Assembly (NCBI RefSeq): GCF_029227915.1
Contig: NC_079879.1
Location: 27,379,095 to 27,443,094, forward strand
From: Hydractinia symbiolongicarpus
Lineage: Eukaryota
DNA length: 64,000 bases
Direction of reading: 5' to 3'
A program made the translations under genes and the position numbers. This document shows, in pieces, positions 12,590 to 64,000 of the stretch. Every line of letters starts with the position of its first letter. Positions within the stretch are counted from its first letter, which is position 1. The notes beneath the pieces are model-generated. The model saw only the letters and a program-made list of their open reading frames with translations, was not told the origin of the DNA and ran no database searches.

Positions 12590-12595
12590 GCCGAG

Positions 12596-12626
12596 AATGA
12601 TGATGATGATGATGATGATGATATGT
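12596..12626 (+). repeat. (ATG)n microsatellite tail of the LINE
   Basis: aatgatgatgatgatgatgatgatgatatg immediately after the ORF stop. Confidence 0.9.
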
Positions 12627-13758
12627 GAGAGGTTTGGAAACCATTATGTTGAAAAAAATTATGAAGTTCATAACAGGCTCAGATAAAATGGTTGTTGATA
12701 CAGTAGAAAAAATTTTCATGCGACCAGAATTGAATTTTACTTGTAGACCAGTAACTCACACATGCACACCAAGCTTAGAACTTCCTTCAACTTATAATAA
12801 TTACTGCGAACTCAGTCAAGAATTCAGCAATATATTGCAGTCATCTGAATGGGAGATGGACATCATTTAAACTGATTTTGGATTCTTTCTATTTATTTAT
12901 TATTTATTTATTTAAAAATATTTATACAGGATGAGGACTTCAGTAATTTGCAAATTTGTACATAAATACAAAAAAACTGCTATCAATGTCCGTCCTGTCT
13001 GACAATAAAAATGGAAAAAAGCAGTAAAAACAGTAAAAACAGCAAAAACAATAAAAACAAACAAAAAATTGATCAACTAGAAATGCAACAGTATGCATAC
13101 AAGGTGTGAAGTGACTTCACATGGGAGCTAAATAAGACATAGGCATAGTTCAAAACATTATTCCCACTTAGCTAAACTTGAAGCAGACTGGACGGCACAG
13201 TGACTAAGATAGAAGCTGAGAGTGCACATCGCCCAATAGCTGGTATCGTCTATTAAGAGAGGTACCCTCTGAGCGCATTCATAAAAAAAGAGACATTTTA
13301 TCGATTTTTCGAATTTCAATTGGCAGTGAATTATACAGTTTACCCCCTGCAAAATAGAAACTCTGCCGGGCGATTTCTAGTTTAACACGAGGTAACCTGA
13401 CAATGCAGCCGTTATTTCGTGTGTCATTGTCATGGCTGACAAAATAATTGTCAAAATGTTCAGAGGTTAGTTCATTTAGTAGATTCTTGTTTTGTTGTTA
13501 TATTTGAACTGACAGACAATAGAGTTTCCAGTATTCTGTTTTGTTAACACTTTTTTTATACAATTTTGGAGAGGGATTTTAGGTGCAATAAAAAACTTTG
13601 TATCGATTTATTTTTATTGTGTTTTTTTATCAATTGTATGAATATCTAGGAAAATTGAAGAATGCCTAAAATTATGAAGGGGTCTGTTTCATACTTTGAT
13701 ATTAAACAGGTAATACTAAATTTGGATTAAAAAAAACATTTAAACAGTTAACTATGTT

Positions 13759-14870
13759 CTATGAATACTGTTCGATCTTTGATTGTAAGTACATGTAGAG
13801 ACGTAACGCATCTGAAACAACATTAGGAAAGTCCCATCCATTTTGTTGCATCAAAGTTTGTGTAAACTCCTTGAACTTGGGGGAAACATGTTCAACTGTG
13901 TTGTGGGTAACGCAGGGATAAAATTGTTCAATCCTATCAGCATCTACGTTTATTAGGCAATCAGTGGCATGATACAAATGTGGCAAGTAATACATTACAT
14001 CTGGTCTTCCACGAGGGCCAGAATTCCTACTCTTAGAAATAATGTGTGAATTCCACTCATCTTGAACAGTCTGCAACTCCTTGCAGATCAACGGCGTATG
14101 CGATCGACTAACACAGGATCCGAACTTGTAAAAACATTTAGGTTGGTCATATATCTGAAAAATGATTTCCACCAACCAATGCGATCACGCTGTAAGGTAG
14201 ACAAGTAGGACTCAATTTCTTTGATTTTCTGGGGAAGAGATAATACTAAAAAAGCCCAAGCTGTTTTGACTGTCAGTTGAACTATGTAAATAAACATGAA
14301 TTGGCTCAATCAAAGAATGTTTGGTACTGTCATCTCCCTTGATCTGACTTGGTATGCCTTCCAATTCCTTGATTGAGTCTAAATAAAATTTTGCTATGAT
14401 TTACAGGAGTTTATTGGAGGATCCCACTTCAAGCCAGTTTAATTTTCTCAAGAAGCCATCAATACAACCGTAGATCGAAACCCAAGAGGTTTCAATTTGT
14501 CATGACCGTCAATGTGCCATGCGTAATTGGGCCCTTCGCGAAACATATTTGCGTCTGTGAAGTCGTCGCTTTTTTCGAAGAAACACTCCTTCGGGGTTTA
14601 ACGATTTTATTATCAATCTTACGTCTTCGTGACGACAAATAATTGACCAGACAACACTGTTGCTCACATTCTACGATAACCTAAGATCGAACCACTACCA
14701 TACATCTCCTGCTGGATTGCTTGACCAAGTTCCTGATTTGAATTACGCTTTTCCTCTACAGCTCTACGTTTCAAGCCATGCTGTCTGAGTTTTCGTTTAA
14801 GATTCGATTAACTAATTTCAATCCTACGAACGTGTTTCAACAACCCAATTATTTCAGAATATGAAAAGCC
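13759..14870 (-). pseudogene. decayed copy of the HTH + rve integrase family found intact at 49668..51201 (multiple stops and frameshifts)
   Basis: Minus-strand translation gives ...GPNYAWHIDGHDKLKPLGF (compare [30 protein letters not shown]), QRDRIGWWKSF (compare NQRIERLWRDL) and SDPVLVDRIRRIPLICKELQTVQDEWNSH (compare LDPVNDVDLYALHSVFLPRINRACEKFVKQWNNH). Upstream, SLKRKLRQHGLKRR resembles the HTH segment. Confidence 0.5.
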
Positions 14871-24206: not shown

Positions 24207-25690
24207 TTTTTTTTTTTTTTTTAATTTATTTTGCCGTTGTAGAATATACAGTTTTCCGTAAGAATAAAATACAAATCTTAAGCTATTATATCGTGTAATC
24301 TAAAGATAGGATTGCATATGCTAAAAATATTAGCTAGAGAGGTAAAAAATGGCAGGAGCGAGAAGAAGGCTATAATAGCCTTTTCACCAAGCCCCCAACC
24401 TATATAAAAGGTTAGCATTGAAGATGATGAGGAGTTGTGTTATATGTGTCGTACGTTGTAACTGTCGTGTGTTCTAAAATAAACATAGATTGTCAGTAGT
24501 CAATAGTTTATGTTTTAGTTTATGTTTGAATTCGTTAAGTGATGTAATAGTTTTCATGTCGTTATCAAGAAATGTATTCCACAATTTAGGTCCTCTGCTA
24601 GTTATAGAGAACTTTGTGATTGTATAATTAATTCTAGGTTGAAAAAAACTGTTAATTGAAAATCTGGATGGATATTTATGTTGTATCTTCTGAAACATAT
24701 CATTAAATACTCTTGGTAACACATTGTTTTCAAGCTTAAACATAAAAATAAGAGTTTGATAAATGTTTAGTTGGTATAAATTCAGTACACTGATCTTTTT
24801 GAATAACTCTCTGGAGTGAGTGTACCTGTCAACATTTAAAATAATTCTGATTGCATGTTTTTGTTTATTTTGTAATTTTGTCAATTTTGTAGCGTTGGTG
24901 CTGCACCACGCAATATTTGCATAATTTAGATAGCAATGAATGAAAGAAGAATATATGTTTTTTAAACAATTCTGATCTAGAACAAATTTTGCTTTAAATA
25001 GGATGCCAATATTCTTTGCGACCTTTTCTTCTAAAATATTTATATGTTCTCTCCAAGTAACATTTTCATCAAGAATAACTCCTAAAAATTTCATGGATTG
25101 TGCTCTTTTTATACTTATATTATTAATAGATAAATCAGGAAACTTCAATGGCATATCATCTTTTTTATTGTGCCTGTGAAAAAGTGTGTACTTTGTTTTA
25201 GAAATATTTAGGGACAGTGTGTTTGCCTTAAACCATTCTGATGTTTTTACATCTTTATGTGCATAAAACAGATTTGTATCATCTGCAAATAAAATTGAAT
25301 GTAAAATATTCGAAGCTTTGTTTAAATAATTTACATATATAAGGAATAAGAGTGGTCCTAATATGGAACCTTGTGGAACTCCACAGATGATTGTTTTGTA
25401 GTTTGTACTTCCACCGTCAAAGGAAATGTACTGTTTTCTATTGGATAAATAACTTTCAAACCAGCGAATGTTGGAATTGCGGATACCGTAGTTTTTGAGT
25501 TTTTCTAGTAGAATTTTGTGATCTACGGTGTCAAATGCTTTGCTTAGATCTATAAAAATTCCTAGCATGTACTTGTTTTCGTCAAACGCCTTTGATATTT
25601 CATTAACAAGTTTAACTATTGCATGATCAGTAGAATGGCCTGCTTGAAAGCCAAATTGTTCATCAATTTTCAGGTTTATTATTTTTCTTT
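24207..25690 (-). mobile_element. 5'-truncated non-LTR retrotransposon (RT domains + C-terminal region; FADD box; poly(A) tail) of the Jockey/CR1/L2 type
   Basis: Minus-strand translation runs from FGFQAGHSTDHAIVKLVNEISKAFDENKYMLGIFIDLSKAFDTVDH... through PQGSILGPLLF and ILFADDTNLF to NIAWCST. A 3' UTR follows, then A26 (plus-strand T-run 24207-24232). Confidence 0.7.
24474..25680 (-). CDS. reverse-transcriptase fragment ORF of the truncated LINE (ORF-track 24474..25568 extended upstream in a second frame)
   Basis: RT motifs as listed for the parent element. The frame breaks near 25568. Confidence 0.6.
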
Positions 25691-27283: not shown

Positions 27284-27644
27284 CGCTGTTGTAGATTAGT
27301 GGTTATAGCTCTCGTATTCTGTACGGGAGACCGGGGTTCGATTCCTCTTGACAGCGATTCAACATGGGCGAGTGAATGTTACCATAGCCCAGGGTTAACC
27401 CAAGCCATGTCAGGGAAATTGGGGAGATGGCTCCATGTGTGGGCCGTTGGATGTTGTCGGGAGTTGTCTAGTAGAGCGTGGGCCCTAATTGGGTCTGTGT
27501 AGCTCAAATTGAGCATTAAATACTCTAGGACTCTCCATCTAAGCCATGGCCCCTCCTGGAAAAAATAGACAAGGTATATCCCTCGATATTAGTGAGGCTA
27601 GCCATTGTATATAAAATATGCACATCTATCTATCTATCTATCTA
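27284..27644 (+). mobile_element. tRNA-derived SINE, full-length copy with (ATCT)n tail
   Basis: gtagattagtggttatagctctcgtattctgtacgggagaccggggttcgattcc... The body is ~90% identical to the 19912 copy. The tail is atctatctatctatctatcta. Confidence 0.8.
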
Positions 27645-36789: not shown

Positions 36790-37109
36790 GTAAGTTCTAT
36801 CATTTTTCATGTTATTATTTTGTCCATCATCAAATAGTTTTATACTTTTTAACATTTATTACTGACATGTGTTAAGATTTATTTTTATGCTTGTCCACCT
36901 GCAAACTATGTCCTTAAACAAAAAAAGGCACTGCTACCTCTAACAGCGGGTTGTGGGAGGGACCAAAGTGGCATTATCTCTAAAATAATAGCCATTGTTT
37001 GGGTTTTCCTGAGACTCTCTGCACATATGAAAGTATTTTTTTGAAGTTTTTTTACAAAACAATTTTTAGTGTTCCTCACACTAAACATTTTTTAAACATT
37101 TTGCCATGT

Positions 37110-37895
37110 TGGTTGATCAAGTAATGAAAGTTATTGAAAGAGTGATTGATAAGTTACTTAGAGAAACAATTGATATAGATAAGATGCAATTTGGTTTTGT
37201 TCCAGGGCGTGGCACTACAGATCCAATATTTTTACTCAGACAACTTCAGGAAAAGTATTTAGGAAAGAGAAAGAATTTCTATTTTGCCTTTGTAGATTTA
37301 GAGAAAGCTTTTGATAGAGTGCCACGTAAAGTTATTTGGTGGGCTATGAAAAAATTAGGTGTGGATGAGTGGCTAGTTACGATGGTACAGTCTATGTACA
37401 GCAATGCTAGAAGTCGTGTCAGGATTAACGATTCACTTAGTGATGAATTTAGTGTGAATGTTGGTGTACATCAGGGTTCTGTACTTAGTCCTTTGTTGTT
37501 TGTTCTAGTCTTAGAAGCGCTGTCGATGAATTTCAGAACAGGTTGTCCATGGGAGTTATTGTATGCAGATGATTTGGTTCTCATAGCAGAGTCGATGGAA
37601 GAATTAGTTGAAAAGTTTGAGAAGTGGAAGAAAGGACTAGAAGAGCTAAGGGTGAACACATCAAAGTCTAAAGTCATGATTAGTAGCATTGCAGCCAAGT
37701 GTGACCTTGTAGTTGGAAAGTGGCCTTGTGGAGTTTGCAGGAAAGGGGTTGGTAGTAACTAAATTTTTTGTCAGACTTGCAAGCATTGGGTACATAAGAA
37801 GTGCAGTAGTATTGGTGGAAGGTTAGGACCAGACATCCAGTTTGTATGCAATGTGCAAAGGTGAGATTATAGAGAATGAAGTATTTCCAGCATTT
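37110..37895 (+). mobile_element. internal 0.8-kb fragment (RT core) of the same LINE family as 9175..12628, inside an intron of the plus-strand gene
   Basis: ~95% nucleotide identity to 11166..11955. Its ORF (37106..37762) keeps FGFVPGRGTTDPIF and YADDLVLIA. Truncated at both ends. Confidence 0.85.
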
Positions 37896-46279: not shown

Positions 46280-46705
46280 ATACTGTATTGCGTGCTTCTC
46301 GGTATTGCGCAGCTAAGCTGCCATTTTGCGTGAGAGACGGACAGACGTATACGGGCATTATAATATAGACTAGTCGTTGCCCGTGGAAAAATACACGGGT
46401 TCGTCCGTCCATTATATTTACCCGTCGCAACAAAGTGGATAAAAATGTATCGTATTTGATATTCGTGTTTCCGTAACATCATTTTCTAACTCAGCGGGGG
46501 GTCCGCGCAGAGACAGACAGACGACGGCTATTATTATAGGGACTAGCCGTTAGCCCGTGGAAAAATCCACGGGGTCGCCAGTCCTTCAACTTTACCCGTC
46601 GCAACAAAGTGGATAAAGATATATCGCATTTGATATTCGTGTTTCCGTAACATCATTTTATAACTCAGCGGGGGTCCGCGCAGAGACAGACAGACGGAAT
46701 ACGGC
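46280..46705. repeat. ~167-bp tandem repeat, ~2.5 copies, each containing palindrome CCGTGGAAAAATCCACGG and gagacagacagac
   Basis: 46364..46535 and 46536..46705 are ~85% identical. A partial unit at 46280..46363 shares the ...gagacggacagacgtatacgggcattataatatag end. Confidence 0.7.
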
Positions 46706-47192: not shown

Positions 47193-47225
47193 TATGGCGC
47201 GCCTGAGGGGACAAAATTAAAAAAA
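47193..47225 (+). repeat. left terminal inverted repeat (33 bp)
   Basis: Exact reverse-complement match to 51456..51488. Confidence 0.9.
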
Positions 47226-47516
47226 TATTTTGTTATTTAAAAAAAGAATATTTTTGTAAAAAAACAGTTTTTTTGAAGAAAATACTTATTTTTTGAAATT
47301 TTTAAAAAATAATAATGAAAAAACAACAACGAATAAACAAAAAGATATAAAAACAATTTGATTTATTTTATTGTTCATTTTTTTGAAAAAAAATGAAAAA
47401 CAGTTGGAGAACATTTTTGTCCGACGGCCAGGCTCTATCAATCAATCATTTTTGTTCGACAGCGTAACCTGTTCTGCAAATTATTACTTTGTTCGCCCTC
47501 CTGTGGCACTCCTAAA

Positions 47517-47679
47517 ATGGCGCAGAAAGAAAACAACATGAGCTCTGCACTTGAAGGCCTCAGCAACCTTGTTCGTGCTTTGGAACAGCACAAAAAGAAG
47601 CCCGAGCAGAACAGCGAATCAAACAATGTTGAAGAAGCTGTACATTTACTCTTCCGTCCAAATAGACAAGAGAAAAATG
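47517..47679 (+). CDS. exon 1 of transposon-borne HECT-like gene (MAQKENNMSSALEGLSNLVRALEQHKKKPEQNSESNNVEEAVHLLFRPNRQEKN)
   Basis: ATG in good context (ctaaaATGG), donor G|gtaaaaag at 47680, phase 1. Confidence 0.5.
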
Positions 47680-47866
47680 GTAAAAAGCTACGTTATTTTG
47701 TTTCACAAACCACTTTCAGTTTTTTGGTTTTGTGACTTATATAGCTAGTAGCAATCTAGCTAAAAACCAAGTTGCAATGACTACAATATATATTTTTCCC
47801 GAAAGAGCTGGTATGGGTAACAGCTATTTTTGTGACCTTTGTAATGTCATTTTTGAATTATTTTAG

Positions 47867-48745
47867 AACACGCAGATCGGAACACTCTCAGCAGACGATT
47901 ACCATCTTCCACCAAGAGACCTTTTACTAATACCAATAGTAATACTTCTAAGCGAAGGAAATCTGCAACATTCATGAAAGATCTTGTGTTAATTCCTTCA
48001 CCAAAGATTAAAGTTATACCGAAAGGTGAATTGAAGGAACATTTACAATCATCAGGATTTATTGTTAATGCCTTCGAAGTTTTACTTGAAGCTCAGGAGG
48101 AGGAAATCAGAGAAACGATTTTTGAAAAGTTCCAAGATAAACTTCCAAGCAAGAATCAATTTTCATTTATGAAACCTGTACATAAAAAATTAATGAATCC
48201 TTCAGGCATAAATAACATAAATGGAAAAGTTTTAAAGCATTTGTCTTCTCCTGGTATAAACGGGTGCATATATATCAGGTCTTTAATTGACATAACTAAA
48301 AGTTATTTTAGTGCATTCATCAATTGCTATGAAGAAGAAGAAAAGGTTAAATCTGACAGTGACGATGGATTATTAGAAACGCCAGCATTTGGATTAATTA
48401 AAGATGTAAATAACTATACTTCAACAGGCCAAATTGAGTCATCATCTCAAAGTTCATCAAAGGATCTTGTGCTTGAACAATCAGAAAAAAAACTTGGCTG
48501 CAGTACAGAATTTGTGATGAAGAATTTGGTTGATATTCGTACAATTCATGCGGCAACAGGGAACAAACAAAAAATTTCAATCAACAGGTCAGATACATAT
48601 TTAAAAACCACTTTAATTCAACATAAACGTGGTCAAATTGACATATCTTACTTCCCAGAAGTAACCTTCGAAAATGGAGAAGAAGGCATGGATGCAGATG
48701 GTCCAAAAAGGGAATATTTTTACATATTACTTGATCGATTGATAC
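47867..48745 (+). CDS. exon 2 of HECT-like gene; ends with the HECT N-lobe start motif ...ISYFPEVTFENGEEGMDADGPKREYFYILLDRLI (3' junction uncertain: candidate donors at 48746, 48761, 48763; ORF runs to stop at 48795)
   Basis: Acceptor ttattttag| at 47866 restores frame with exon 1 (G+AA = Glu). GEEGMDADGPKREYFYILL matches the HECT consensus GEEGIDAGGLTREFFTLL. Confidence 0.5.
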
Positions 48746-48901
48746 GTGGAGAAGGAATATGTGTCATCATTCTACTTTACATTTTTACTTTCTAGAAAAT
48801 TTTTCCAATTTTTTATAGGACTATAATTTGTATTTTTAATATTGTTTGCAAGTTGATGTATTTCTTATGGGTGTAAAATTTGCAGCTTCTTTTTATTTTA
48901 G

Positions 48902-49122
48902 CTATCACAACAAAAGACCTATTAGTATTTCGTTGCTCTTCGCCAGTTCCTTTAGAAAATGGCGTTACTCTAAAGTTCAACAGGAGAGGTAAACCATTGC
49001 CTGATGCAGATACGTGTCTTTCGATACTTTCGATTCCAATTTGTCATGATGCATATAACGATTTCAAAAAGGCAATTGATGCTACCTTACGATTACAAGG
49101 ACAGGGTTTTGGACGTTTGTGA
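48902..49122 (+). CDS. last exon of HECT-like gene: HECT C-lobe end with catalytic Cys (...FRCSSPVPLENGVTLKFNRRGKPLPDADTCLSILSIPICHDAYNDFKKAIDATLRLQGQGFGRL*)
   Basis: Matches HECT C-terminal consensus ...VTGSSRVPLxGF...LPxAHTCFNxLxLPxYxSxExLxxxLxxAIxxxxGFGxx. The Cys lies ~35 residues from the C-terminus. Candidate acceptors are cag| at 48885 and ttttag| at 48901. Stop at 49120-49122. Confidence 0.55.
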
Positions 49123-49667
49123 GTTTTTAATATATATATACATGGTTTTTTTTCTTTTTGCCGTCCTAAAACGTCCAAAGTTATACAAACCTGGAAGTTT
49201 AAAAAGATTATTATATAAGATTATTATATATTATATAAAAAGATTGTTATATTATATGTTGACATTATTTTTTATTTTGCATTTCTGCAGTTTTTCTTTA
49301 CTTTTCGTTATATAAAAAGGAGACTTATTGACTTAACTAATTTTCATAATGCTAATAACAATAAAAGGCCTGAAAGTTTTTTACGTTAGTGAAAAATATA
49401 TGTGTAGGATACTATGTTTTGTTAGTGATTACTAAAGTTTTTGTTATTTAATACGAGTAAATGTGAACTTCTGATTAAAGTATTTCTTTGATACACTAAA
49501 ATACATTTTTGTCTCTGTTAAAAATTAACAACTTTTTAACTTTACATACTCCTACTATCAAGTGCCAAATAAACGCCAACCCACCAACCGAATTAATTTT
49601 TTGACCCTTATGTTTCATCGCGAGAGCTTAAAATCGTTTGTTTGTTATTCGACCGTACATCAGCTTA

Positions 49668-50439
49668 TCATAGCGCATGTACCAATAATTCACGAGTTTG
49701 AATGTACAAGTTTATTCCGTGATTGTGGTCTTCAGAAAGCGGGTCAATATTTTGCATAAAATTGTCTGGTAAATTCAGAGCTATCTCAGGAACATTTACG
49801 TTGTTGATCGAATCTATTAAAGGAGCTGGACCGTCAAGTTCGACTCCATGTGTACCAATGTTTTCATTTTCCTCCATTATCTGTCTCAAACCGTTATCAG
49901 AAGAATGCCAGTTCATATACATGCCTTGAGTCCACAGCTGATACGGCGTTCTATTGCCTTCAGTTGATAAAGGATGATTATTCCACTGCTTCACAAATTT
50001 CTCGCAAGCACGATTAATTCTAGGCAAAAACACGCTATGCAATGCGTACAAATCTACATCATTTACGGGGTCTAACATTTCTTGCTGCTCCATGAAATAA
50101 AAAATGCCTTTAAAATAATCAACCACCTGTATGACTAAGTCGCGCCAAAGCCTTTCGATTCTTTGATTATGCACTGATAGTCCAGTTATGACAGGCTTAC
50201 TGGCCACACCAAAGTGTCCCAGCATCCATCGTGCCACTTCAATATTTTCTGTACCGTGGTCAGTGCGAATTCTCCTAGGGACATTGTATTTATTGATGGC
50301 TTCCAGAAATAGATCTAATACGGTAGTGCTTCTGTTATTTGAATTACATCTGAGAAATGTTACTAATCTTGAATAACCATCTATACATCCGTGAAACACA
50401 ATGCGCCATCTAATTAACTTATGATGACCATCCATATGC
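49668..50439 (-). CDS. integrase exon 2: rve (retroviral-type integrase) catalytic core, D-D-E intact (HMDGHHKL ... IRTDHGTEN ... NQRIERLW)
   Basis: A 73-bp GT-AG intron (plus 50440..50512; minus gtaagtaag...attcttttag) joins ...SLW to HMDGHHKL in frame. D1-D2 spacing is 56 aa and D2-E spacing is 35 aa, typical of rve domains. Stop at 49668-49670. Confidence 0.7.
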
Positions 50440-50512
50440 CTAAAAGAATATTTTAAGAAATGGATATGGGCATAACGCAAACACCGTTTGTTAATTAGGG
50501 AAACTTACTTAC

Positions 50513-51201
50513 CACAGCGAATTTGGAGATTTCACATTGTACCTCCTTCTTTGTATACAATTCCTTCGTCTCATCACCCTGCTCAACGCGTCTACCCTCA
50601 TGATTGATTGTCGCAATCTTTCTCTTTTCACCTTAATATGTTTGCTGGTAATTGCACCTATTACCATTCTTTCGCCGCAATTTGGGAGTATCAAAAGCAC
50701 TTCTCGAACTATTTCATCGAGTTGTTGATCAGTTATGTCTGAATATTCTGCTTCTCCAAAAGGTAAATCAAATTCTTTACGACGACGACGGAGTGTTTTG
50801 ATACTAATACCAAGCATTTGAGCAATGTCCTTCCATTGATATCCGATCTTTTTCAAGCTAATGACTTGTTCCTTTGGCACTTCATACTTTGGTCTGCCAA
50901 CCTCACCAGTCACAGCTCTAGGACTAATGTAAGCATTGCTTTTATCACCACCTCGACAACGATGTTTCACTAGTTCTTCATAAAAATTTTGTAGTGACCT
51001 AATAACTTTTGGTATACGATCACTTATATCAGGCACTTGTAAGTACTCTAAGTATATTGATGCTAAATTCCATATAATTTCGTCAAACTGAATGTTGTAA
51101 ATTTCCTGCCCGATTTCATTCAAGGGCAAAAACCTGTTTCTTTCTAAACCATTTAGAAACGTAATTGCAGCTGTAACATGTGGAACATATACCGCCATCA
51201 T
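50513..51201 (-). CDS. integrase exon 1: N-terminal region with helix-turn-helix (ISLKKIGYQWKDIAQMLGISIKTLRRRRKEF) up to ...RRRYNVKSPNSLW
   Basis: ATG ATG at plus 51201/51198 on the minus strand. The exon ends ...ctgtg|gtaagtaag (phase 2), which splits the Trp codon. Confidence 0.65.
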
Positions 51202-51455
51202 TGTTTTTCTAACATCTTCATTTTTGCGCAAAATTTTAAATAAAATGCCGAACAGTCATACTTGTCGAAATTTTGATTGATTGATTGACAGGTGCCACAA
51301 AAAAAGAAAAAAACATTTTTTGAAAAAAGTAATAATTTTTTTCAACTAAAAAGAAAAAAAATTGCGAAAAAAAATTTTTTTTCGTATTTTTTAATATATT
51401 TTAATATCAAAAATGTTTTTTTCTTGGAAAAAAGTTTTTTTGTTTATTTTTTGGG

Positions 51456-51488
51456 TTTTTTTAATTTTGTCCCCTCAGGCGCGCCATA
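51456..51488 (-). repeat. right terminal inverted repeat (33 bp)
   Basis: Exact reverse-complement match to 47193..47225. Confidence 0.9.
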
Positions 51489-53187: not shown

Positions 53188-54138
53188 TCATGTCAAAGGC
53201 TTGTCTGCATATCCCAAGTATGTTTTTTTTGCAAAAAAATACATTTTTGGTATAGGACGATAAACTATGGACGCCGTCAATCCTTTAAAACCGAAACTTC
53301 CAATGACTTTATCAGTATTTCGCGTGACATTACAATTCGATCGCAAAGCTGCCCACGTATCATTCATTGTTTCTTGTGCATACCTCGTCCAGGTTCCACG
53401 CTCTGCAGCAATATGTTCTTTGAAGTAGAATCGACCTCCTGGCTTCAAAACTCTCATGATTTCATTTAAAGCTTTGGTTTGGTCTTGAACACAACAAAGC
53501 AAGAGCGAGCTTACTACACAACTGCATGAGTTATCAGCAATTAATCCACTCATATCTTCAACATTTCCAATCAAATATTTCTCCAACGTAACATGCTTAT
53601 TTTTCTCTAAACTTTCGTTTAAATAGGACTTGAAATTCTCATTCAAGTCAATTGTCATTAACCTAACACCTTTAGGGTAGTGTTCCAAGTTAGCGCAACT
53701 ACCAGCTCCAAGTTCCAGCACTGGTCCTCCTCCTACCTGTTCAATCACTTCCTCCATGCTACTGAATAACTCCTGATTCATTTTCTGGATGTCTTTTTGT
53801 TGGGCTTTATTCTTAGCCAAGCGACTGGTATCCCATGCTAAAAACTTTTTAAGTAGGCTTTTCGCTATTGACTGCACAAAAGCTAGCTTGAACAGGAAAT
53901 AAATTGTAAGAGCGAGGATAAAAAACCAGATTAGAAGCGAATAAACAAGTGACATGATGCTTCTAAATGTGAAGAAAAGAAAAATTAACATGTGTAATCG
54001 TTTAGCATGAATGATGAAAACATATAAAAGTGCCATGCCGACTGTTCGCCATGCGATAGGCCAGGTTTCAAAAATAATTAGCTGAGTTACAAAAATAATT
54101 GAGGTTAATCCTGAATCAATAGTAGAAACTGGCTTCAT
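53188..54138 (-). CDS. intronless 316-aa membrane-anchored SAM-dependent methyltransferase, METTL7/TMT1 (thiol methyltransferase)-like
   Basis: N-terminal hydrophobic helices. Motif I VLELGAGSCANLEHYP, then ...CVVSSLLLCCVQDQTKALNEIMRVLKPGGRFYFKEHIAAERGTW, closely paralleling METTL7B VLEVGCGTGANFQFYP...[43 protein letters not shown]. Confidence 0.8.
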   Translation of the reverse strand: MKPVSTIDSGLTSIIFVTQLIIFETWPIAWRTVGMALLYVFIIHAKRLHMLIFLFFTFRSIMSLVYSLLIWFFILALTIYFLFKLAFVQSIAKSLLKKFLAWDTSRLAKNKAQQKDIQKMNQELFSSMEEVIEQVGGGPVLELGAGSCANLEHYPKGVRLMTIDLNENFKSYLNESLEKNKHVTLEKYLIGNVEDMSGLIADNSCSCVVSSLLLCCVQDQTKALNEIMRVLKPGGRFYFKEHIAAERGTWTRYAQETMNDTWAALRSNCNVTRNTDKVIGSFGFKGLTASIVYRPIPKMYFFAKKTYLGYADKPLT

Positions 54139-55105: not shown

Positions 55106-55188
55106 TGCTAAACTACAGAGTATAAAAAATATAGTTATATAGATGAATTCTGTTGTTTACATTTTCAGTGGGAAGCTCTTTTGGCTTT

Positions 55189-55410
55189 GCATTTGCGTTG
55201 CAGGAAAAAAAGATGACGCTAGGTCAGTTTATTTCTTCACACAACGGCATTCTTTTAGGACTTTAAATGAGATCAAATAAATCAGAAGACATCCGTTTAG
55301 CTACACTTGACAATAGATAATAGAAATTCACAGTAAAAGACCTCTTTTGACGAAATCGTAGCATCTCTTTCCTGCCACGCAAATGCCAGAGCCAAGAAGC
55401 TTACCACTGA
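55189..55410. mobile_element. MITE-like short repeat, copy of 18287..18540 family (gcatttgcgttgcaggaaa ... tttcctgccacgcaaatgc)
   Basis: Terminal 19-bp inverted repeat, ~85% identical to the 18287 copy. Confidence 0.4.
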
Positions 55411-56914
55411 AAAGTAAACAAATAACGTCACAATGGCATCTATCCATCTATATTTTCTTAAATACTGATGTTGTATGAGTGTTTTGAAATTAGGTTGTTT
55501 TGGATTGGGAGGAAACTTTATATTAAAACATTTTTCTTTGTTCCTTATGGTTTGTTCTGTTGTTGTTGTTTTGTTTTTAGCTTTGTCCAGTTCCACCTTC
55601 CCCTGACTGTTAACTAGACATTTGACAATATTTGGAATACTAATATTTTTCCTGACACATTGGACACCGCACCCTACATGACATTCATTTTTTACAAATA
55701 AATAAAACAACTACAGCAGCAAATAAAAACAATCTTACCAAAAACGTTTTTCCACGTGTATACTGTGTTCCAACCGGTGTGTGGTAGAATATTCTGCCCC
55801 CCTAGAATATTCTGCCCCCCCCGTAGTTGTGACTAATTACTTTAAGTATCAAATATTTGTCCGGCTATTGCGTTAAAGATGGCGGAGTTCGCTGTGCTGA
55901 CTGTACACAAAGCTATTATAGGGATATAGGTTAGTGAAAATGTATATATTACAGCCACATATTTGTTCACATTTAGCTTAGTGACAATGTATTACAATAC
56001 ATATTATATTTGTTGACTTACAGCCCCCTTGATTGTGTTTTATATACTCCATATTCATATTAAAACAAAATTCTTTCAGAACATATTAGCTAGCTATAAT
56101 TGACTAAAATACGAACTTTTTCGTTGCATATTACTACATCATCAAGTAAAATGAATTACTAAAACTGTATTACGATTATATACATTAAAAATTACAAACA
56201 TGTCCCGAAAGACGTAAAACTAATAGATGAATTCTGTTGTTTACGTTTTTAGCAGTAGCTAAGCTCTTTCGAAACTTGACACTTGTGAATCATGCCAAAG
56301 AAACATTGGGGCTACTGTCTCATTTCTGAGCAGCTTAAGATTTACTATATATACATCCAAACAAGTCAGTTCTAGTGTCTGCCCAATGCATAGTTTTTAG
56401 TGTTTGTGTTAAACTCTGCTCAGATGACAATAGCCTTAATCAATGAAAGGGTCAAAAAAAAGGAGTCTAATGTAAGGACTTGTTGTGCATGCCTCACCCC
56501 AGGTTTGTTTGAAGAATTATCGGAACATTAATTTCTGTCTTCAATGCCATGAAGTATGGCAAGTCACATTATATAAGTCTTTGGAAAGAGATAACAACCT
56601 AGGACTTAAGGTAGGCCATGGAGAGTTTTGATTTTTTCTGTCAGAATTTTCTATTAAGGATGTACAATGGTGGCTCAAAGTGGCTCAGTTTACCAGACCT
56701 ATACATTTGCCTAAAATTAATCTAATTTTATCCTTCGATGTTATGTATGTTCTTCAGGGTTAGGTGGTACTGGTAGAAACTTTTAAATAGGTGGACGTTG
56801 GTCTGAGGGAGAATTGCCACAGAGCATATCAATACACTTCAGAGTTGTTGGTTGCATTTTTTGCACTCAATATCTTCTTAAAAATCATTCAATATAGACA
56901 TTTTCAATTAAGAT

Positions 56915-59900
56915 TCGAAAAAATCAGGTATGGATGCCTGAATTATTCTGTACCCCCTACAGTTCTGGGCGTACAAATATCTGGCAACGCCATGGGGGGT
57001 ACAGAAAAAATCACGTATGGATGCCTGAATTATTCTGTACCCCCCTACAGTTCTGGGCGTACAAATATCTGGGTACGCCATGGGGGGTACAGAAAAAATC
57101 AGGTATGGATGCCTGAATTATTCTGTACCCCCCTGCAGTTCTAGGCGTACAGTATCCGGCAACGCCATAGGGGGTACAGAAAAAATCAGGTATGAATGCC
57201 TGAATTATTCTGTACCCCCCTACAGTTCTGGGCGTGCAAATATCTGGCTACGCCATAGGGGGTACAGAAAACGTCAGTTATTAATGCCTGAATTATTCTG
57301 TACCCCCCAACAGTTCTAGGCGTACAATATCTGGCAACGCGATAGGGGGTACAGAAAAAATCAGGTATGAATGCCTGAATTATTCTGAACCCCCTACAGT
57401 TCTGGGCGTACAAATATCTGGGTACGCCATGGGGGGTACAGAAAAAATCAGGTATGGATGCCTGAATTATTCTGTACCCCCCTACAGTTCTAGACGTACA
57501 ATATCAGGCAACGCCATAGGGGGTACAGAAAAAATCAGGTATTAATGCCTGAATTATTCTGTACCCCCCCACAGTTCTAGGCGTACAATATCTGGCAACG
57601 CCATAGGGGGTACAGAAAAAATCAGGTATGTATGCCTGAATTATTCTGTACCCCCTACAGTTCTGGGCGTGTCAATCTCTGGCAACGCCATAGGGGGTAC
57701 AGAAAAAATCAGGTATGAATGCCTGAATTATTCTGTACCCCCTACAGTTCTGGGCGTACAAATATCTGGGTACGCCATGGGGGGTACAGAAAAAATCAGG
57801 TATGGATGCCTGAATTATTCTGTACCCCCTACAGTTCTGGGCGTGCAAATATCTGGCAACGCCATAGGGGGTACAGAAAAAATCAGGTATGAATGCCTGA
57901 TTTATTCTGTACCCCCTACAGTTCTGGGCGTGCAAATATCTGGCAACGCCATAGGGGGTACAGAAAAAATCAGGTATGTATGCCTGAATTATTCTGTACC
58001 CCCTACAGTTCTGGGCGTGCAAATATCTGGCAACGCCATAGAGGGTACAGAAAAAATCAGGTATTAATGCCTGAATTATTCTGTACCTCCCCTACAGTTC
58101 TAGGCGTACACTATCCGGCAACGCCATAGGGGGTACAGAAAAAATCCGGTATGAATGCCTGAATTATTCTGTACCCTACAGTTCTGGGCGTGCAAATATC
58201 TGGCAACGCCATAGGGGTACAGAAAAAATCAGGTATGGATGCCTGAATTATTCTGTACCCCCCTACAGTTCTGGGCGTACAAATATCTGGGTACGCCATG
58301 GGGGGTACAGAAAAAATCAGGTATGGATGCCTGAATTATTCTGTACCCCCTACAGTTCTGGGCGTACAAATATCTGGCAACGCCATGGGGGGTACAGAAA
58401 AAATCACGTATGGATGCCTGAATTATTCTGTACCCCCCTACAGTTCTGGGCGTACAAATATCTGGGTACGCCATGGGGGGTACAGAAAAAATCAGGTATG
58501 GATGCCTGAATTATTCTGTACCCCCCTGCAGTTCTAGGCGTACAGTATCCGGCAACGCCATAGGGGGTACAGAAAAAATCAGGTATGAATGCCTGAATTA
58601 TTCTGTACCCCCCTACAGTTCTGGGCGTGCAAATATCTGGCTACGCCATAGGGGGTACAGAAAACGTCAGTTATTAATGCCTGAATTATTCTGTACCCCC
58701 CAACAGTTCTAGGCGTACAATATCTGGCTACGCCATAGGGGGTACAGAAAACGTCAGGTATTAATGCCTGAATTATTCTGTACCCCCCTGCAGTTCTGGG
58801 CGTACAAATATCTGGTAACGCCATAGGGGGTACAGAAGGCGTCAGGTATTAATGTCTGAATTATTCTGTACCCCCCTGCAGTTCTAGGCGTACACTATCC
58901 GGCAACGCCATAGGGGGTACAGAAAAAATCACGTATGAATGCCTGAATTATTCTGTACCCCCTACAGTTCCGGGCGTGTAAATCTCTGGCAACGCCATAG
59001 GGGGTACAGAAAAAATCAGGTATGGATGCCTGAATTATTCTGTACCCCCCTACAGTTCTGGGCGTACAAATATCTGTGTACGCCATGGGGGGTACAGAAA
59101 AAATCAGGTATGGATGCCTGAATTATTCTGTACCCCCCTGCAGTTCTAGGCGTACACTATCCGGCAACGCCATAGGGGGTACAGAAAAAATCAGGTATGA
59201 ATGCCTGAATTATTCTGTACCCCCTACAGTTCTGGACGTGCAAATATCTGGCAACGCGATAGGGGTTACAGAAAAAATCAGGTATTAATGCTTGAATTAT
59301 TCTGTACCCCCCAACAGTTCTAGGCGTACAATATCTGGCAACGCGATAAAGGGTACAGAAAAAATCAGGTATGAATGCCTGAATTATTCTGTACCCCCTA
59401 CAGTTCTGGGCGTGCAAATATCTGGCAACGCCATAGTGGGTACAGAAAAAATCAGGTATGTATGCCTGAATTATTCTGTACCCCCTACAGTTCTGGGCGT
59501 GCAAATATCTGGCAACGCCATAGGGGTACAGAAAAAATCAGGTATGGATGCCTGAATTATTCTGTACCCCCCTACAGTTCTGGGCGTACAAATATCTGGG
59601 TACGCCATGGGGGGTACAGAAAAAATCAGGTATGGATGCCTGAATTATTCTGTACCCCCTACAGTTCTGGGCGTACAAATATCTGGCAACGCCATGGGGG
59701 GTACAGAAAAAATCACGTATGGATGCCTGAATTATTCTGTACCCCCCTACAGTTCTGGGCGTACAAATATCTGGGTACGCCATGGGGGGTACAGAAAAAA
59801 TCAGGTATGGATGCCTGAATTATTCTGTACCCCCCTGCAGTTCTAGGCGTACAGTATCCGGCAACGCCATAGGGGGTACAGAAAAAATCAGGTATGAATG

Positions 59901-62900
59901 CCTGAATTATTCTGTACCCCCCTACAGTTCTGGGCGTGCAAATATCTGGCTACGCCATAGGGGGTACAGAAAACGTCAGTTATTAATGCCTGAATTATTC
60001 TGTACCCCCCAACAGTTCTAGGCGTACAATATCTGGCAACGCGATAGGGGGTACAGAAAAAATCAGGTATGAATGCCTGAATTATTCTGAACCCCCTACA
60101 GTTCTGGGCGTACAAATATCTGGGTACGCCATGGGGGGTACAGAAAAAATCAGGTATGGATGCCTGAATTATTCTGTACCCCCCTACAGTTCTAGACGTA
60201 CAATATCAGGCAACGCCATAGGGGGTACAGAAAAAATCAGGTATTAATGCCTGAATTATTCTGTACCCCCCTACAGTTCTAGGCGTACAATATCTGGCAA
60301 CGCCATAGGGGGTACAGAAAAAATCAGGTATGTATGCCTGAATTATTCTGTACCCCCTACAGTTCTGGGCGTGTCAATCTCTGGCAACGCCATAGGGGGT
60401 ACAGAAAAAATCAGGTATGAATGCCTGAATTATTCTGTACCCCCTACAGTTCTGGGCGTACAAATATCTGGGTACGCCATGGGGGGTACAGAAAAAATCA
60501 GGTATGGATGCCTGAATTATTCTGTACCCCCTACAGTTCTGGGCGTGCAAATATCTGGCAACGCCATAGGGGGTACAGAAAAAATCAGGTATGAATGCCT
60601 GATTTATTCTGTACCCCCTACAGTTCTGGGCGTGCAAATATCTGGCAACGCCATAGGGAGTACAGAAAAAATCAGGTATGTATGCCTGAATTATTCTGTA
60701 CCCCCTACAGTTCTGGGCGTGCAAATATCTGGCAACGCCATAGAGGGTACAGAAAAAATCAGGTATGGATGCCTGAATTATTCTGTACCCCCTTACAGTT
60801 CTGGGCGTACAAATATCTGGGTACGCCATGGGGGGTACAGAAAAAATCAGGTATGGATGCCTGAATTATTCTGTACCCCCCTACAGTTCTAGACGTACAA
60901 TATATGGCAACGCCATAGGTGGTACAGAAAAAATCAGGTATTAATGCCTGAATTATTCTGTACCCCCCTACAGTTCTAGGCGTACAATATCTGGCAACGC
61001 CATAGGGGGTACAGATAAAATCAGGTATGTATGCCTGAATTATTCTGTACCCCTCACAGTTCCGGGCGTGTAAATCTCTGGCAACGCCATAGGGGGTACA
61101 GAAAAAATCAGGTATGGATGCCTGAATTATTCTGTACCTCCCTACAGTTCTGGGCGTACAAATATCTGGGTACGCCATGGGAGGTACAGAAAAAATCAGG
61201 TATGGATGCCTGAATTATTCTGTACCCCCCTACAGTTCTAGGCGTACAATATCTGGCAACGCCACAGGGGGTACAGAAAAAATCAGGTATGAATGCCTGA
61301 ATTATTCTGTACCCCCCTACAGTTCTGGGCGTGCAAATATCTGGCAACGCCATAGAGGGTACAAAAAAAATCAGGTATTAATGCCTGAATTATTCAGTAC
61401 CCCCCTACAGTTCTAGGCGTACAATATCTGGCAACGCCATAGGGGGTACATAAAGCGTCAGGTATTAATGCCTGAATTATTCTGTACCCCCCTGCAGTTC
61501 TAGGCGTACACTATCCGGCAACGCCATAGGGGGTACAGAAAAAATCAGGTATGAATGCCTGAATTATTCTGTACCCCCTACAGTTCTGGGCGTGCAAATA
61601 TCAGGCAACGCGATAGGGGGTACAGAAAAAATCAGGTATTAATGCTTGAATTTTTCTATACCCCCCAACAGTTCTGGGCGCACAATATCTGGCAACGGGA
61701 TAGGGGGTACAGAGAAAATCAGGTATGAATGCCTGAATTATTCTGTACCCCCTACAGTTCTGGGCGTGCAAATATCTGGCAACGCCATGGGGGGTACAGA
61801 AAAAATCAGGTATGGATGCCTGAATTATTCTGTACCCCCCTGCAGTTCTGGGCGTACAAATATCTGGGTACGGCATGGGGGGTACAGAAAAAATCAGGTA
61901 TGGATGCCTGAATTATTCTGTACCCCCCTACAGTTTTAGGCGTACAATATCTGGCAACGCCACAGAGGGTACAGAAAAAATCAGGTATGAATGCCTGAAT
62001 TATTCTGTACCCCCCTACAGTTCTGGGCGTACAAATATCTGGGTACGCCATGGGGGTTACAGAAAAAATCAGGTATGTATGCCTGAATTATTCTGTACCC
62101 CCTACAGTTCTGGGCGTGTCAATCTCTGGCAACGCCATACGGGGTACAAAAAAAATCAGGTATGGATGCCTGAATTATTCTGTACCCCCCTGCAATTCTG
62201 GGCGTACAAATATCTGGGTACGCCATTGGGGGTACAGAAAAAATCAGGTATGGATGCCTGAACTATTCTGTACCCCCTACAGTTTTAGGCGTACAATATC
62301 TGGCAACGCCACAGGGGGTACAGAAAAAATCAGGTATGAATGCCTGAATTATTCTGTACCCCCCTACAGTTCTGGGCGTGCAAATATCTGGGAACGCCAT
62401 AGCGGGTACAGAAAAAATCAGGTATTAATGCCTGAAATATTCTGTACCCCCCTACAGTTCTAGGCGTACAATATCTGGCAACGCCATAGGGGGTACAGAA
62501 AAAATCAGGTATGTATGCCTGAATTATTCTGTACCCCTTACAGTTCTGGGCGTACAAATATCTGGCAACGCCATAGGGGATACAGAAAAAATCACGTATG
62601 GATGCCTGAATTATTCTGTACCCCCTTACAGTTCTGGGCGTACAAATATCTGGGTACGCCATGGGGGGTACAGAAAAAATCAGGTATGGATGCCTGAATT
62701 ATTCTGTACCCCCTTGCAGTTCTAGGCGTACAGTATCCGGCAACGCCAGAGGGGGTACAGAAAAAATCAGGTATGAATGCCTGAATTATTCTGTACCCCC
62801 CTACAGTTCTGGGCGTGCAAGTATCTGGCTACGCCATAGGGGGTACAGAAAACGTCAGGTATTAATGCCTGAATTATTCTGTACCCCCTACAGTTCTGGG

Positions 62901-64000
62901 CGTGCAAACATCTGGCTACGCCATAGGGGGTACAGAAAACGTCAGGTATTAATGCCTGAATTATTCTGTACCCCCCAACAGTTCTAGGCGTACAATATCT
63001 GGCAACGCGATAGGGGGTACAGAAAAAATCAGGTATGAATGCCTGAATTATTCTGTACCCCCTACAGTTCTGGGCGTACAAATATCTGGGTACGCCATGG
63101 GGGGTACAGAAAAAATCAGGTATGGATGCCTGAATTATTCTGTACCCCCCTACAGTTCTAGACGTACAATATCAGGCGACGCCATAGGGGGTACAGAAAA
63201 AATCAGGTATTAATGCCTAAATTATTCTGTACCCCCCTACAGTTCTAGGCGTACAATATCTGGCAACGCCATAGGGGGTACAGAAAAAATCAGGTATGTT
63301 TGCCTGAATTATTCTGTACCCCCTACAGTTTTGGGCGTGCAAATATCTGGCACCGCCACAGGGGGTACAGAAAAAATCAGGTATGGATGCCTGAATTTTT
63401 CTGTACCCCCCTACAGTTCTGGGCGTGCAAATATCTGGCGACGCCATAGAGGGTACAGAAAAAATCAGGTATGAATGCCTGAATTATTCTGTACCCCCCT
63501 ACAGTTCTGGGCGTACAAATATCTGGTAACGCCATAGGGGGTACAGAAAGCGTCAGGTATTAATGCCTGAGTTATTCTGTACCCCCCTGCAGTTCTAGGC
63601 GTACACTATCCGGCAACGCCATAGGGGGTACAGAAAAAATCAGGTATGAATGCCTGAATTATTCTGTACCCCCTACAGTTCTGGGCGTGCAAATATCTGG
63701 CAACGCGATAGGGGGTACAGAAAAAATCAGGTATTAATGCTTGATATATTCTGTACCCCCCAACAGTTCTAGGCGTACAATATCTGGCAACGCGATAGGG
63801 GGTACAGAAAAAATCAGGTATGAATGCCTGAATTATTCTGTACCCCTTACAGTTCTGGGCGTGCAAATATCTGGCAACACCATAGGGGGTACAGAAAAAA
63901 TCAGGTATGTATGCCTGAATTATTCTGTACCCCCTACAGTTCTGGGCGTGCAAATATCTGGCAACGCCATAGGGGGTACAGAAAAAATCAGGTATGGATG
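56915..64000. repeat. tandem satellite, 87-88-bp monomer (~81 copies in window, array continues beyond window end), with higher-order repeat structure
   Basis: Consensus-like monomer atcaggtatgRatgcctgaattattctgtaccccc(c)tacagttctgggcgtacaaatatctggcaacgccatagggggtacagaaaaa. Monomer subtypes tgcagttctaggcgtacagtatccgg and aacagttctaggcgtacaatatctgg recur with period. All long ORFs on both strands here are repeat artefacts. Confidence 0.95.

What the first reader, a model, noticed from the sequence alone, without database searches (positions are those of the whole stretch)
56915..64000. Large 87-88-bp satellite array with higher-order repeat organisation
At least 7 kb of head-to-tail monomers run to the window edge. 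Identical ~240-bp stretches recur at offsets of 1393 bp and then 1309 bp. Examples are the ORF-track endpoints 57144/58537/59846 and 57319/58712/60021. This is 16 and 15 monomers, a higher-order repeat signature typical of centromeric or pericentromeric satellites. Monomer subtypes differ at defined positions: ctgggcgtacaaatatctggg versus ctaggcgtacagtatccgg versus aacagttctaggcgtacaatatctgg.
Basis: seen in the sequence. Interest (0 to 1): 0.6.

Follow-up and report, generated by a model that had tools for sequence, protein, structure and literature searches.

The report
Ordinary hydroid satellite DNA, no regular HOR
This is a real but ordinary non-coding satellite of 87-88-bp units in the hydroid Hydractinia symbiolongicarpus; its long identical stretches come from a few recent block duplications, not from the regular higher-order repeat typical of centromeres.

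Summary
An 87/88-bp tandem array (81.2 copies, 90% matches) runs from 56917 to the window end. The quoted identical stretches at offsets of 1393 and 1309 bp exist, as exact runs of 419 and 555 bp.

Mean monomer identity is about 0.91 at every offset. The only multi-monomer peaks (15, 16 and 31 monomers) come from one 13-monomer block copied at 99.66% plus a nested 5-6-monomer copy. They disappear once that segment is collapsed and are absent in monomers 45-81. Monomer subtypes do follow a non-random order (every D follows a B; ABDAC recurs 6-7 times), but at irregular spacing.

The window comes from Hydractinia symbiolongicarpus. In that genome tandem arrays cover about 16% of the assembly, and the published putative centromeric repeat is a different, 182-bp IS3EU-like unit. 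The array starts abruptly, no more than 2.8 kb from an annotated gene.

Each monomer carries a near-palindrome of about 50 bp, which hints at an origin from a TIR or foldback element. I found no coding or RNA-gene signal.

Chromosome position and genome-wide copy number could not be tested. Low interest.

The parts
56917..64000 (.). Tandem array of 87/88-bp satellite monomers: 81 full monomers plus a 20-bp partial, cut off by the window end. GC is 46%, against about 33% in the flank.
   Evidence: TRF; monomer segmentation; composition
56916..56917 (.). Sharp left boundary of the array. Unique sequence ...TTAAGATTC is followed directly by GAAAAAATCAGG, which is the middle of the right inverted-repeat arm. 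The first monomer is 97% identical to the consensus, and no degenerate monomers lie to the left.
   Evidence: Sequence; blastn of a consensus trimer against 1-56916 finds nothing; identity along the array
56917..58087 (.). Block copy 1 (monomers 1-13), 1171 bp, 99.66% identical to 59619-60789 at an offset of 2702 bp (31 monomers).
   Evidence: Self-blastn; monomer matrix
59619..60789 (.). Block copy 2 (monomers 32-44) of the 1171-bp duplication.
58174..58787 (.). Nested partial copy (monomers ~16-21). It is 614 bp at 99.0% to 59483-60096 (offset 1309 = 15 monomers). Its part at 58310-58787 is 98.7% identical to 56917-57394 (offset 1393 = 16 monomers).
56994..57045 (.). Example of the per-monomer near-palindrome: GGGGGGTACAGAAAAAATCACGTAT / ATGCCTGAATTATTCTGTACCCCCC, with 25-nt arms, 84% complementary and 2 nt apart. 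It recurs once per monomer, and the same arms also bracket the 38-bp core of each monomer.
   Evidence: the repeat finder I8 and I2; DNA folding z = -5.6, with 0 of 200 shuffles folding as well

Best explanation
This is a non-coding satellite DNA array in the nuclear genome of the hydrozoan Hydractinia symbiolongicarpus.

The 87/88-bp monomer has four parts: a left inverted-repeat arm (CCTGAATTATTCTGTACCCCC), a 38-bp core with a small GGCGT...ACGCC dyad, a right arm (GGGGGTACAGAAAAAATCAGG) and an 8-nt spacer (TATGAATG). Every monomer junction is therefore a near-palindrome of about 50 bp.

The array evolves like other satellites. Point mutations create monomer variants. Unequal exchange, or replication-associated duplication or conversion of multi-monomer blocks, then spreads them locally. 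One recent event copied a 13-monomer block 31 monomers away, and a 5-6-monomer piece was copied in between. Older events of the same kind left a recurring but irregularly spaced subtype order (B-D, A-B-D-A-C).

Shown: the array, its anatomy, the block duplications, the non-random subtype order, the absence of a fixed period, and the absence of coding or known-RNA signal.

Inferred: the recombinational mechanism, and the idea that the palindromic arms (hairpin or cruciform potential) favour slippage and expansion. Also inferred, at roughly 30% likelihood, is that the founder monomer came from a short TIR-bearing (MITE or foldback-like) element.

No cellular function is indicated. It is most likely neutral or selfish repetitive DNA at the edge of a gene-bearing region.
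For: Array and period. Monomer lengths and a flat identity profile (about 0.91 at k = 1-49).

Block duplications at 99.66%, 99.0% and 98.7%. Subtype order non-random (0 of 20,000 shuffles reach the observed BD or ABDAC counts, and it also holds in the second half). No fixed period after collapsing duplicates.

Dyad symmetry.

Non-coding: 87 = 3 x 29 keeps frames open by construction. The plus-strand ORF has no homolog among 5.8 billion proteins. The minus-strand ORF gives only weak hits to unrelated repeat translations among 1.84 billion representatives, and the best of these is unrelated at the DNA level.

Not a known RNA gene.

Organism: the flanking ORF is 100% identical to XP_057307871/2 of H. 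symbiolongicarpus.

Context: tandem arrays cover 15.7% of this species' assembly (PMC11067881).
Against: Only 7.1 kb of an array of unknown total length is visible, so a regular HOR could exist further in.

The arms are not significantly better conserved than the loops (minor-allele frequency 0.032 vs 0.082, p = 0.18). C-run and G-run lengths do not co-vary. So nothing shows that the palindrome matters functionally.

No solo or dispersed copy of the unit occurs in the other 57 kb of the window, so the TE-origin idea has no direct support.

Genome-wide copy number, chromosome position and chromatin state are unknown.
Confidence: 0.8

Rival explanations
1. This is the first reader's view: a centromeric or pericentromeric satellite organised in regular 15-16-monomer higher-order repeats.
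For: There are multi-monomer identity peaks at k = 15, 16 and 31. The subtype order is non-random. Strong dyad symmetry is a feature reported to be enriched at many centromeres (PMC5889037). An intact IS3EU element lies 5.4 kb away, and IS3EU-like derivatives mark the putative centromeres in this species (PMC11934779).
Against: The peaks come from a single triplicated segment and vanish when it is collapsed (p = 0.20) and in monomers 45-81 (p = 0.09). Monomer classes differ by only about 5%. An annotated gene lies no more than 2.8 kb from the array edge. The published putative centromeric repeat has a 182-bp unit, not 87-88 bp. One IS3EU copy is not an accumulation.
Confidence: 0.06
2. The array is a copy of one of the already published mega-families, most plausibly the subtelomeric HSymSR (15.9% of the genome). 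In that case it is already known.
For: HSymSR and HSymSHlR together make up most of the tandem DNA in this genome, so the prior is high. Divergence from consensus here is 5.8%, and the reported Kimura level of HSymSR is 5.85%. The reported median HSymSR copy length of 209 bp equals about 2.4 of our monomers.
Against: The published unit lengths are about 150 bp, 372 bp and 182 bp, and none is 87-88 bp or a multiple of it. HSymSR arrays are described as starting at the end of HSymSHlR arrays and far from genes. Here the array directly abuts unique gene-bearing DNA, and TRF finds no 372-bp array in the flank.
Confidence: 0.12
3. The array is the expanded internal tandem-repeat region of a mobile element (Helitron, foldback or MITE-type), moved or seeded here by transposition rather than grown in place.
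For: The monomer has TIR-like 21-25-nt inverted arms around a short core, with an 8-nt spacer. The left boundary is abrupt, and the bases just before the first monomer are TC. Helitron-derived tandem arrays are prominent in this genome (PMC11934779). There are precedents for satellites born from foldback or MITE elements (PMC4079207, PMC6947457, PMC9659126).
Against: No transposase or Rep/helicase ORF, element terminus or TSD could be defined. The array edge falls inside an arm, not at a unit boundary. No canonical Helitron 3' hairpin plus CTRR is evident. There are no solo copies in the window. The right end is not visible.
Confidence: 0.12
4. This is a tandem array of small-RNA genes or hairpin-RNA (miRNA- or piRNA-like) precursors.
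For: Hydractinia has tandem arrays of 5S, tRNA, U5 and SRP RNA genes (PMC11067881). The monomer is of tRNA or pre-miRNA size and folds well.
Against: There are no tRNA or Rfam hits at gathering score. In E-value mode only generic miRNA-hairpin models match, at up to 33 bits against thresholds of 39-117 bits, and on both strands, as expected for any palindrome. There is no compensatory variation.
Confidence: 0.03
5. The near-identical kilobase blocks are an assembly artefact (mis-collapse or mis-expansion within a repeat) rather than real duplications.
For: Satellite arrays are error-prone in assemblies, and the blocks are 99-99.7% identical.
Against: The blocks differ by a few substitutions and have different neighbours. 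The older 96-98% blocks show the same kind of event at greater age. This cannot be tested without reads.
Confidence: 0.05

Closest known systems
Generic animal satellite DNA with local segmental (multi-monomer) duplications
   Same: Head-to-tail non-coding monomers. About 6% divergence from the consensus. Variants spread in blocks. An A-tract and a higher GC content than the flank. An abrupt array edge.
   Different: The monomer of 87-88 bp is about half the common 170-180-bp size. More than half of it is a palindrome.
Higher-order-repeat satellites (e.g. primate alpha satellite)
   Same: There are distinct monomer types in a non-random order, and some multi-monomer blocks are nearly identical.
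   Different: There is no constant period. The types differ by only about 5% more between than within. High-identity blocks cover one triplicated segment only.
Published H. symbiolongicarpus repeat families HSymSR, HSymSHlR and HSymIS3EUlR (Kon, Kon-Nanjo & Simakov 2025, PMC11934779)
   Same: Same genome, tandem organisation, and a divergence level similar to HSymSR.
   Different: Unit lengths are about 150, 372 and 182 bp, against 87-88 bp here. Those families are far from genes and sit at chromosome ends or centres. Sequence comparison was not possible.
Satellites derived from TIR or foldback elements (e.g. Tetris-derived satellite of Drosophila virilis, PMC4079207; reviews PMC6947457, PMC9659126)
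   Same: The monomer contains terminal-inverted-repeat-like arms, which suggests a unit made of a short TIR element plus a spacer.
   Different: No parent element, solo copies or TSDs were found. This is a resemblance only.
Dyad-symmetric (non-B-DNA-prone) centromeric satellites (Kasinathan & Henikoff 2018, PMC5889037)
   Same: Strong dyad symmetry in every monomer, predicted to fold well as single-stranded DNA (z = -5.6).
   Different: There is no evidence of centromere location or CENP-A association, and the dyads here are much longer than the <10-bp ones described there.

Membership tests
Satellite DNA | Many head-to-tail copies of one monomer forming a long array | tested here: met
   81.2 copies over at least 7084 bp, cut off by the window end
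Satellite DNA | Non-coding | tested here: met
   The ORFs are a by-product of 87 = 3 x 29. There are no protein homologs for either strand
Satellite DNA | High genome-wide copy number or multiple arrays | not testable with these tools
   No eukaryotic genome search is available. The monomer is absent from the rest of the window and from metagenome and prokaryote contigs
Higher-order-repeat (HOR) satellite | A constant multi-monomer period across the array | tested here: not met
   Identity is about 0.91 at all offsets. The peaks at 15, 16 and 31 come from one triplicated segment. Family-wise p = 0.20 after collapsing it and 0.09 in monomers 45-81
Higher-order-repeat (HOR) satellite | HOR copies are far more similar to each other than the constituent monomers are | tested here: not met
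   Within-class identity is 0.95-0.97 and between-class identity 0.90. Only one block pair reaches 99.7%
Higher-order-repeat (HOR) satellite | Ordered arrangement of distinct monomer types | tested here: inconclusive
   The order is non-random (all 12 D follow a B; ABDAC occurs 6 times; 0 of 20,000 shuffles reach the BD or ABDAC counts). The spacing is irregular, at 16, 7, 8, 16, 12 and 5 monomers
Centromeric or pericentromeric satellite | Location at the centromere, or CENP-A association | not testable with these tools
   Chromosome coordinates could not be retrieved, and there are no chromatin data
Centromeric or pericentromeric satellite | Matches the repeat reported at the putative centromeres of this species (HSymIS3EUlR, 182-bp unit) | tested here: not met
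   The period is 87-88 bp, not 182 bp.
HSymSR / HSymSHlR subtelomeric repeats | Unit of about 150 bp (HSymSR) or 372 bp (HSymSHlR); HSymSR follows an HSymSHlR array; far from genes | tested here: not met
   The period is 87-88 bp. There is no 372-bp array in the 57-kb flank. A gene lies no more than 2.8 kb away. Sequence identity could not be tested
MITE- or foldback-derived satellite | Monomer contains the element's terminal inverted repeats | tested here: met
   Arms of 21-25 nt, 84-90% complementary
MITE- or foldback-derived satellite | A parent element or solo copies with target-site duplications exist in the genome | not testable with these tools
Helitron-derived tandem repeat | 5'-TC and 3'-CTRR termini, a tight GC-rich hairpin 10-12 nt before the 3' end, and A|T insertion | tested here: inconclusive
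   TC precedes the first monomer. The only GC dyad (GGCGT...ACGCC) has a 14-nt loop and is followed by ATAG rather than CTRR. The right end is not visible
Tandem ncRNA gene array (tRNA, 5S, snRNA) | Monomer matches an RNA family model | tested here: not met
   ARAGORN and Rfam at gathering score find nothing in the array. There are only sub-threshold hairpin hits

The most novel reading that the evidence does not exclude
The 87-88-bp palindrome-rich satellite could be a previously undescribed, possibly chromosome-specific repeat family of Hydractinia that was born from a short TIR or foldback element. It could mark a heterochromatin or (peri)centromere boundary next to active genes, which would give a cnidarian example of TE-to-satellite conversion with non-B-DNA potential.
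Probability: 0.1. Interest if true: 0.45.

Novelty: new member of a known kind. Interest (0 to 1): 0.2.

Why it matters
It matters little by itself. Tandem arrays make up about 16% of this genome, and irregular block duplication is standard satellite behaviour.

It would gain modest value if genome-wide analysis showed either of two things. One is that it is a distinct family missed by the published three-family description of Hydractinia repeats. The other is that its palindromic monomer derives from a mobile element or sits at centromere boundaries. Cnidarian centromeres and satellite biology are almost uncharacterised.

Tried and rejected
1. Ungapped autocorrelation was blurred by the mix of 87- and 88-bp monomers, so I replaced it with a monomer-level identity matrix.

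2. I used translated satellite ORFs as a handle to find other copies.
- The plus-strand ORF had no hit at all.
- The minus-strand ORF gave 10 weak hits to other repeat translations.
- The best hit, P0030, is an 84-bp x4 repeat on an ENA contig. At the DNA level it is no more similar than shuffles (score 15 vs mean 14.9). Rejected.

3. Exact 22-mer scans of the metagenome and prokaryote genome collections found 0 hits.

4. I tried to get chromosome coordinates by exact protein look-up. This failed for two annotated isoforms and four window ORFs.

5. The perfect 18-bp x2 motif at 55785, which resembles the left arm, scores 26. Several unrelated windows score the same, so it is chance-level.

6. 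Selection on the hairpin: the difference in conservation between arms and loops is not significant, and there is no C-run/G-run covariation.

7. RNA-gene derivation: rejected.

8. A literature search for monomer substrings found only irrelevant papers. No paper pairs Hydractinia with satellite DNA in a relevant way. The Podocoryna genome preprint does not mention satellites or centromeres. No supplementary files with repeat consensus sequences are held.
Full report
OBSERVATION. Tandem Repeats Finder reports a single array at 56917-64000 with period 87, 81.2 copies, 90% matches and 1% indels. It runs off the window end. I cut it into 81 monomers: 56 of 87 bp, 22 of 88 bp, 2 of 86 bp and 1 of 84 bp. 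The array is 46% GC against about 33% in the rest of the window. A 22-nt core of the monomer occurs 48 times at up to 3 mismatches, all inside the array, with 0 expected by chance. A sensitive blastn of the consensus against the other 56.9 kb finds nothing. 57144/58537/59846 and 57319/58712/60021 lie in exact runs of 419 bp (offset 1393), 555 bp (offset 1309) and 653 bp (offset 2702).

IS IT A HIGHER-ORDER REPEAT? Mean identity between monomers k apart is 0.905-0.92 for nearly every k from 1 to 49. The only clear excess is at k = 31 (0.933, with 11 identical pairs), and there are small excesses of identical pairs at k = 15 and 16. The identical pairs are monomers 1-13 = 32-44, 1-5 = 17-21 and 16-21 = 31-36.

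- At the DNA level these are a 1171-bp block (56917-58087 = 59619-60789, 99.66%), a 614-bp block (58174-58787 = 59483-60096, 99.0%) and a 478-bp block (56917-57394 = 58310-58787, 98.7%).
- In a permutation test the k = 31 peak is highly significant (z = 5.4). After collapsing the duplicated monomers no period is significant (family-wise p = 0.20), and none is significant in monomers 45-81 (p = 0.09).
- Monomer classes are only weakly differentiated, at 0.95-0.97 within and 0.90 between.

This is not the regular HOR of a homogenised centromeric satellite.

There is nevertheless real higher-order structure of a looser kind. Variation is concentrated at about 10 positions with discrete states. 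Clustering gives the string ABDACBDCABAAACABABDACFEABDACAABABDACBDCABAAABDCABDACEAGABDBABDACABDAFCBDCAAAEACAA. All 12 D monomers follow a B, and ABDAC occurs 6 times. None of 20,000 shuffles reaches either count, and the effect persists in the second half, which has no 99% copies. The motif recurs at spacings of 16, 7, 8, 16, 12 and 5 monomers. Many 200-510-bp blocks of 96-98% identity lie at irregular offsets. This is the footprint of repeated multi-monomer duplications of different ages.

ANATOMY OF THE MONOMER. The consensus is GAAAAAATCAGG TATGAATG CCTGAATTATTCTGTACCCCCC TACAG...CATA GGGGGTACA. The arm CCTGAATTATTCTGTACCCCC and the arm GGGGGTACAGAAAAAATCAGG are reverse complements with 2 mismatches in 21.

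- Each monomer junction therefore forms a near-palindrome of about 50 bp. The repeat finder I8 gives 25-nt arms, 84% complementary and 2 nt apart.
- The same arms also bracket a 38-bp core that holds a small GGCGT...ACGCC dyad.
- As single-stranded DNA the unit folds at -20.4 kcal/mol, against -7.6 +/- 2.3 for shuffles (z = -5.6, 0 of 200 as good).
- The arms vary less than the spacer and core (0.032 vs 0.082), but not significantly (p = 0.18). C-run and G-run lengths do not co-vary.

So the palindrome looks like an inherited property of the founder sequence, not something demonstrably maintained by selection.

NOT CODING, NOT A KNOWN RNA. Because 87 = 3 x 29, reading frames stay open over several monomers on both strands. 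The 173-aa plus-strand ORF has no homolog among 5.8 billion proteins. The 151-aa minus-strand ORF gives only 10 weak hits among 1.84 billion representatives, all translations of other tandem repeats. The best hit is an 84-bp x4 repeat whose DNA is no more similar to the monomer than shuffled sequence. ARAGORN and Rfam find nothing in the array at curated thresholds. In E-value mode only generic miRNA-hairpin models match, on both strands and far below threshold.

ORGANISM AND CONTEXT. The ORF at 53188-54138 (minus strand) is a class-I methyltransferase. It is 100% identical to the TMT1A-like protein isoforms XP_057307871.1/XP_057307872.1 of Hydractinia symbiolongicarpus, on a 35,016,489-bp record. 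The array starts no more than 2.8 kb from this gene. Its left edge is abrupt. Unique sequence is followed directly by a monomer that is 97% identical to the consensus, and the edge falls inside an arm rather than at a unit boundary. The rest of the window is TE-rich, with LINE endonuclease/RT fragments and an intact IS3EU transposon.

COMPARISON WITH WHAT IS PUBLISHED. Schnitzler et al. 2024 report that TRF-defined arrays cover 15.7% of the H. symbiolongicarpus assembly (PMC11067881). Kon, Kon-Nanjo & Simakov 2025 describe three dominant families (PMC11934779):

- HSymSHlR: 372-bp unit, subtelomeric, Helitron-like.
- HSymSR: about 150-bp unit, median copy 209 bp, 15.9% of the genome. It runs from the HSymSHlR arrays to the chromosome ends.
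- HSymIS3EUlR: 182-bp unit, at the putative centromeres.

All three are far from genes. No period matches 87-88 bp, and the described layout does not match this locus. Their consensus sequences are not in the text or in held supplements, so sequence identity could not be tested. Our 5.8% divergence from consensus is similar to HSymSR's Kimura level of 5.85%, which keeps a modest probability (about 0.12) that this is a variant of that family. I found no paper describing an 87-88-bp Hydractinia satellite.

MECHANISM. The best-supported account is ordinary satellite turnover. Point mutations generate variants. Unequal exchange, or replication-linked duplication of multi-monomer blocks, spreads them locally. 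The duplications themselves are shown, and the process behind them is inferred. The palindromic junctions could promote hairpin extrusion and slippage, which is also inferred. The arm-core-arm-spacer layout resembles a short TIR element plus spacer, as in satellites derived from foldback or MITE elements (PMC4079207, PMC6947457, PMC9659126). No parent element or solo copy was found, so this origin is only a lead, at about 30%.

VERDICT. It is a new, apparently undescribed member of a very well-known kind, in a genome already known to be full of tandem arrays. Interest is low (0.2).

Noticed in passing
window 47193-51488: An apparently intact 4.3-kb DNA transposon. It has perfect 33-bp TIRs (TATGGCGCGCCTGAGGGGACAAAATTAAAAAAA), TA..TA termini and a 6-bp TSD (GTTTTA). 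Its ORFs carry HTH (50509-51231, minus) and rva_4/rve integrase-core (49668-50480, minus) domains, and there is an unassigned 273-aa ORF (47974-48795, plus). These features match the IS3EU superfamily as described in PMC10045372. Perfect TIRs suggest a recent insertion, possibly of an active element. IS3EU-like derivatives mark the putative centromeres in this species (PMC11934779).
   Followed up: partly
window 46333-46696: A 174-bp tandem repeat of 2.1 copies at 87% matches, relatively GC-rich, about 500 bp outside the left TIR of the IS3EU element. It is unrelated to the 87-bp satellite. It might relate to the published 182-bp unit of HSymIS3EUlR, but this was not tested.
   Followed up: no
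window 53188-54138 (minus strand): A single-exon-like ORF for a TMT1A-like methyltransferase, 100% identical to H. symbiolongicarpus XP_057307871.1/XP_057307872.1. This identifies the organism. Isoform X1 starts MGSIMS..., while the genomic ORF reads ...FRSIMS.... That implies a small upstream 5' exon lying even closer to the satellite.
   Followed up: partly
window 55126-55456 and 56223-56252: A foldback or MITE-like inverted repeat of about 330 bp. The arms are 55162-55207 / 55368-55413 (46 nt, 80% complementary) and 55126-55145 / 55437-55456. A third copy of its terminal 30 bp (93% identical) lies 1084 bp downstream, between the gene and the array.
   Followed up: partly
window 55785-55820: A perfect 18-bp x2 direct repeat, TAGAATATTCTGCCCCCC, that superficially resembles the satellite's left arm (GAATTATTCTGTACCCCCC). 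The similarity score is at chance level compared with other windows.
   Followed up: yes
window 8000-14000: A degenerate LINE-like retrotransposon on the plus strand. It has frameshifted ORFs with endonuclease (9542-10306), RT (10433-12589) and a PHD finger. The region has strikingly strong GC skew, up to +0.43. Further RT fragments lie at 24474-25568 (minus) and 37106-37762 (plus).
   Followed up: no
window 27284-27357 (plus strand): A single tRNA-Arg(TCT) gene, found by both ARAGORN and Rfam. It is isolated, not part of the tRNA tandem arrays reported for Hydractinia.
   Followed up: no
L001 5180-5515 (ENA contig ERZ21930224:ctg29069l): An unrelated 84-bp x4 tandem repeat at 99% matches. Its translation mimics the satellite's 29-aa repeat (FxCTPxGxxxYLxxxxCxGxR) closely enough to give a phmmer E-value of 3e-14. 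It is a useful caution that repeat translations can produce spurious protein hits.
   Followed up: yes
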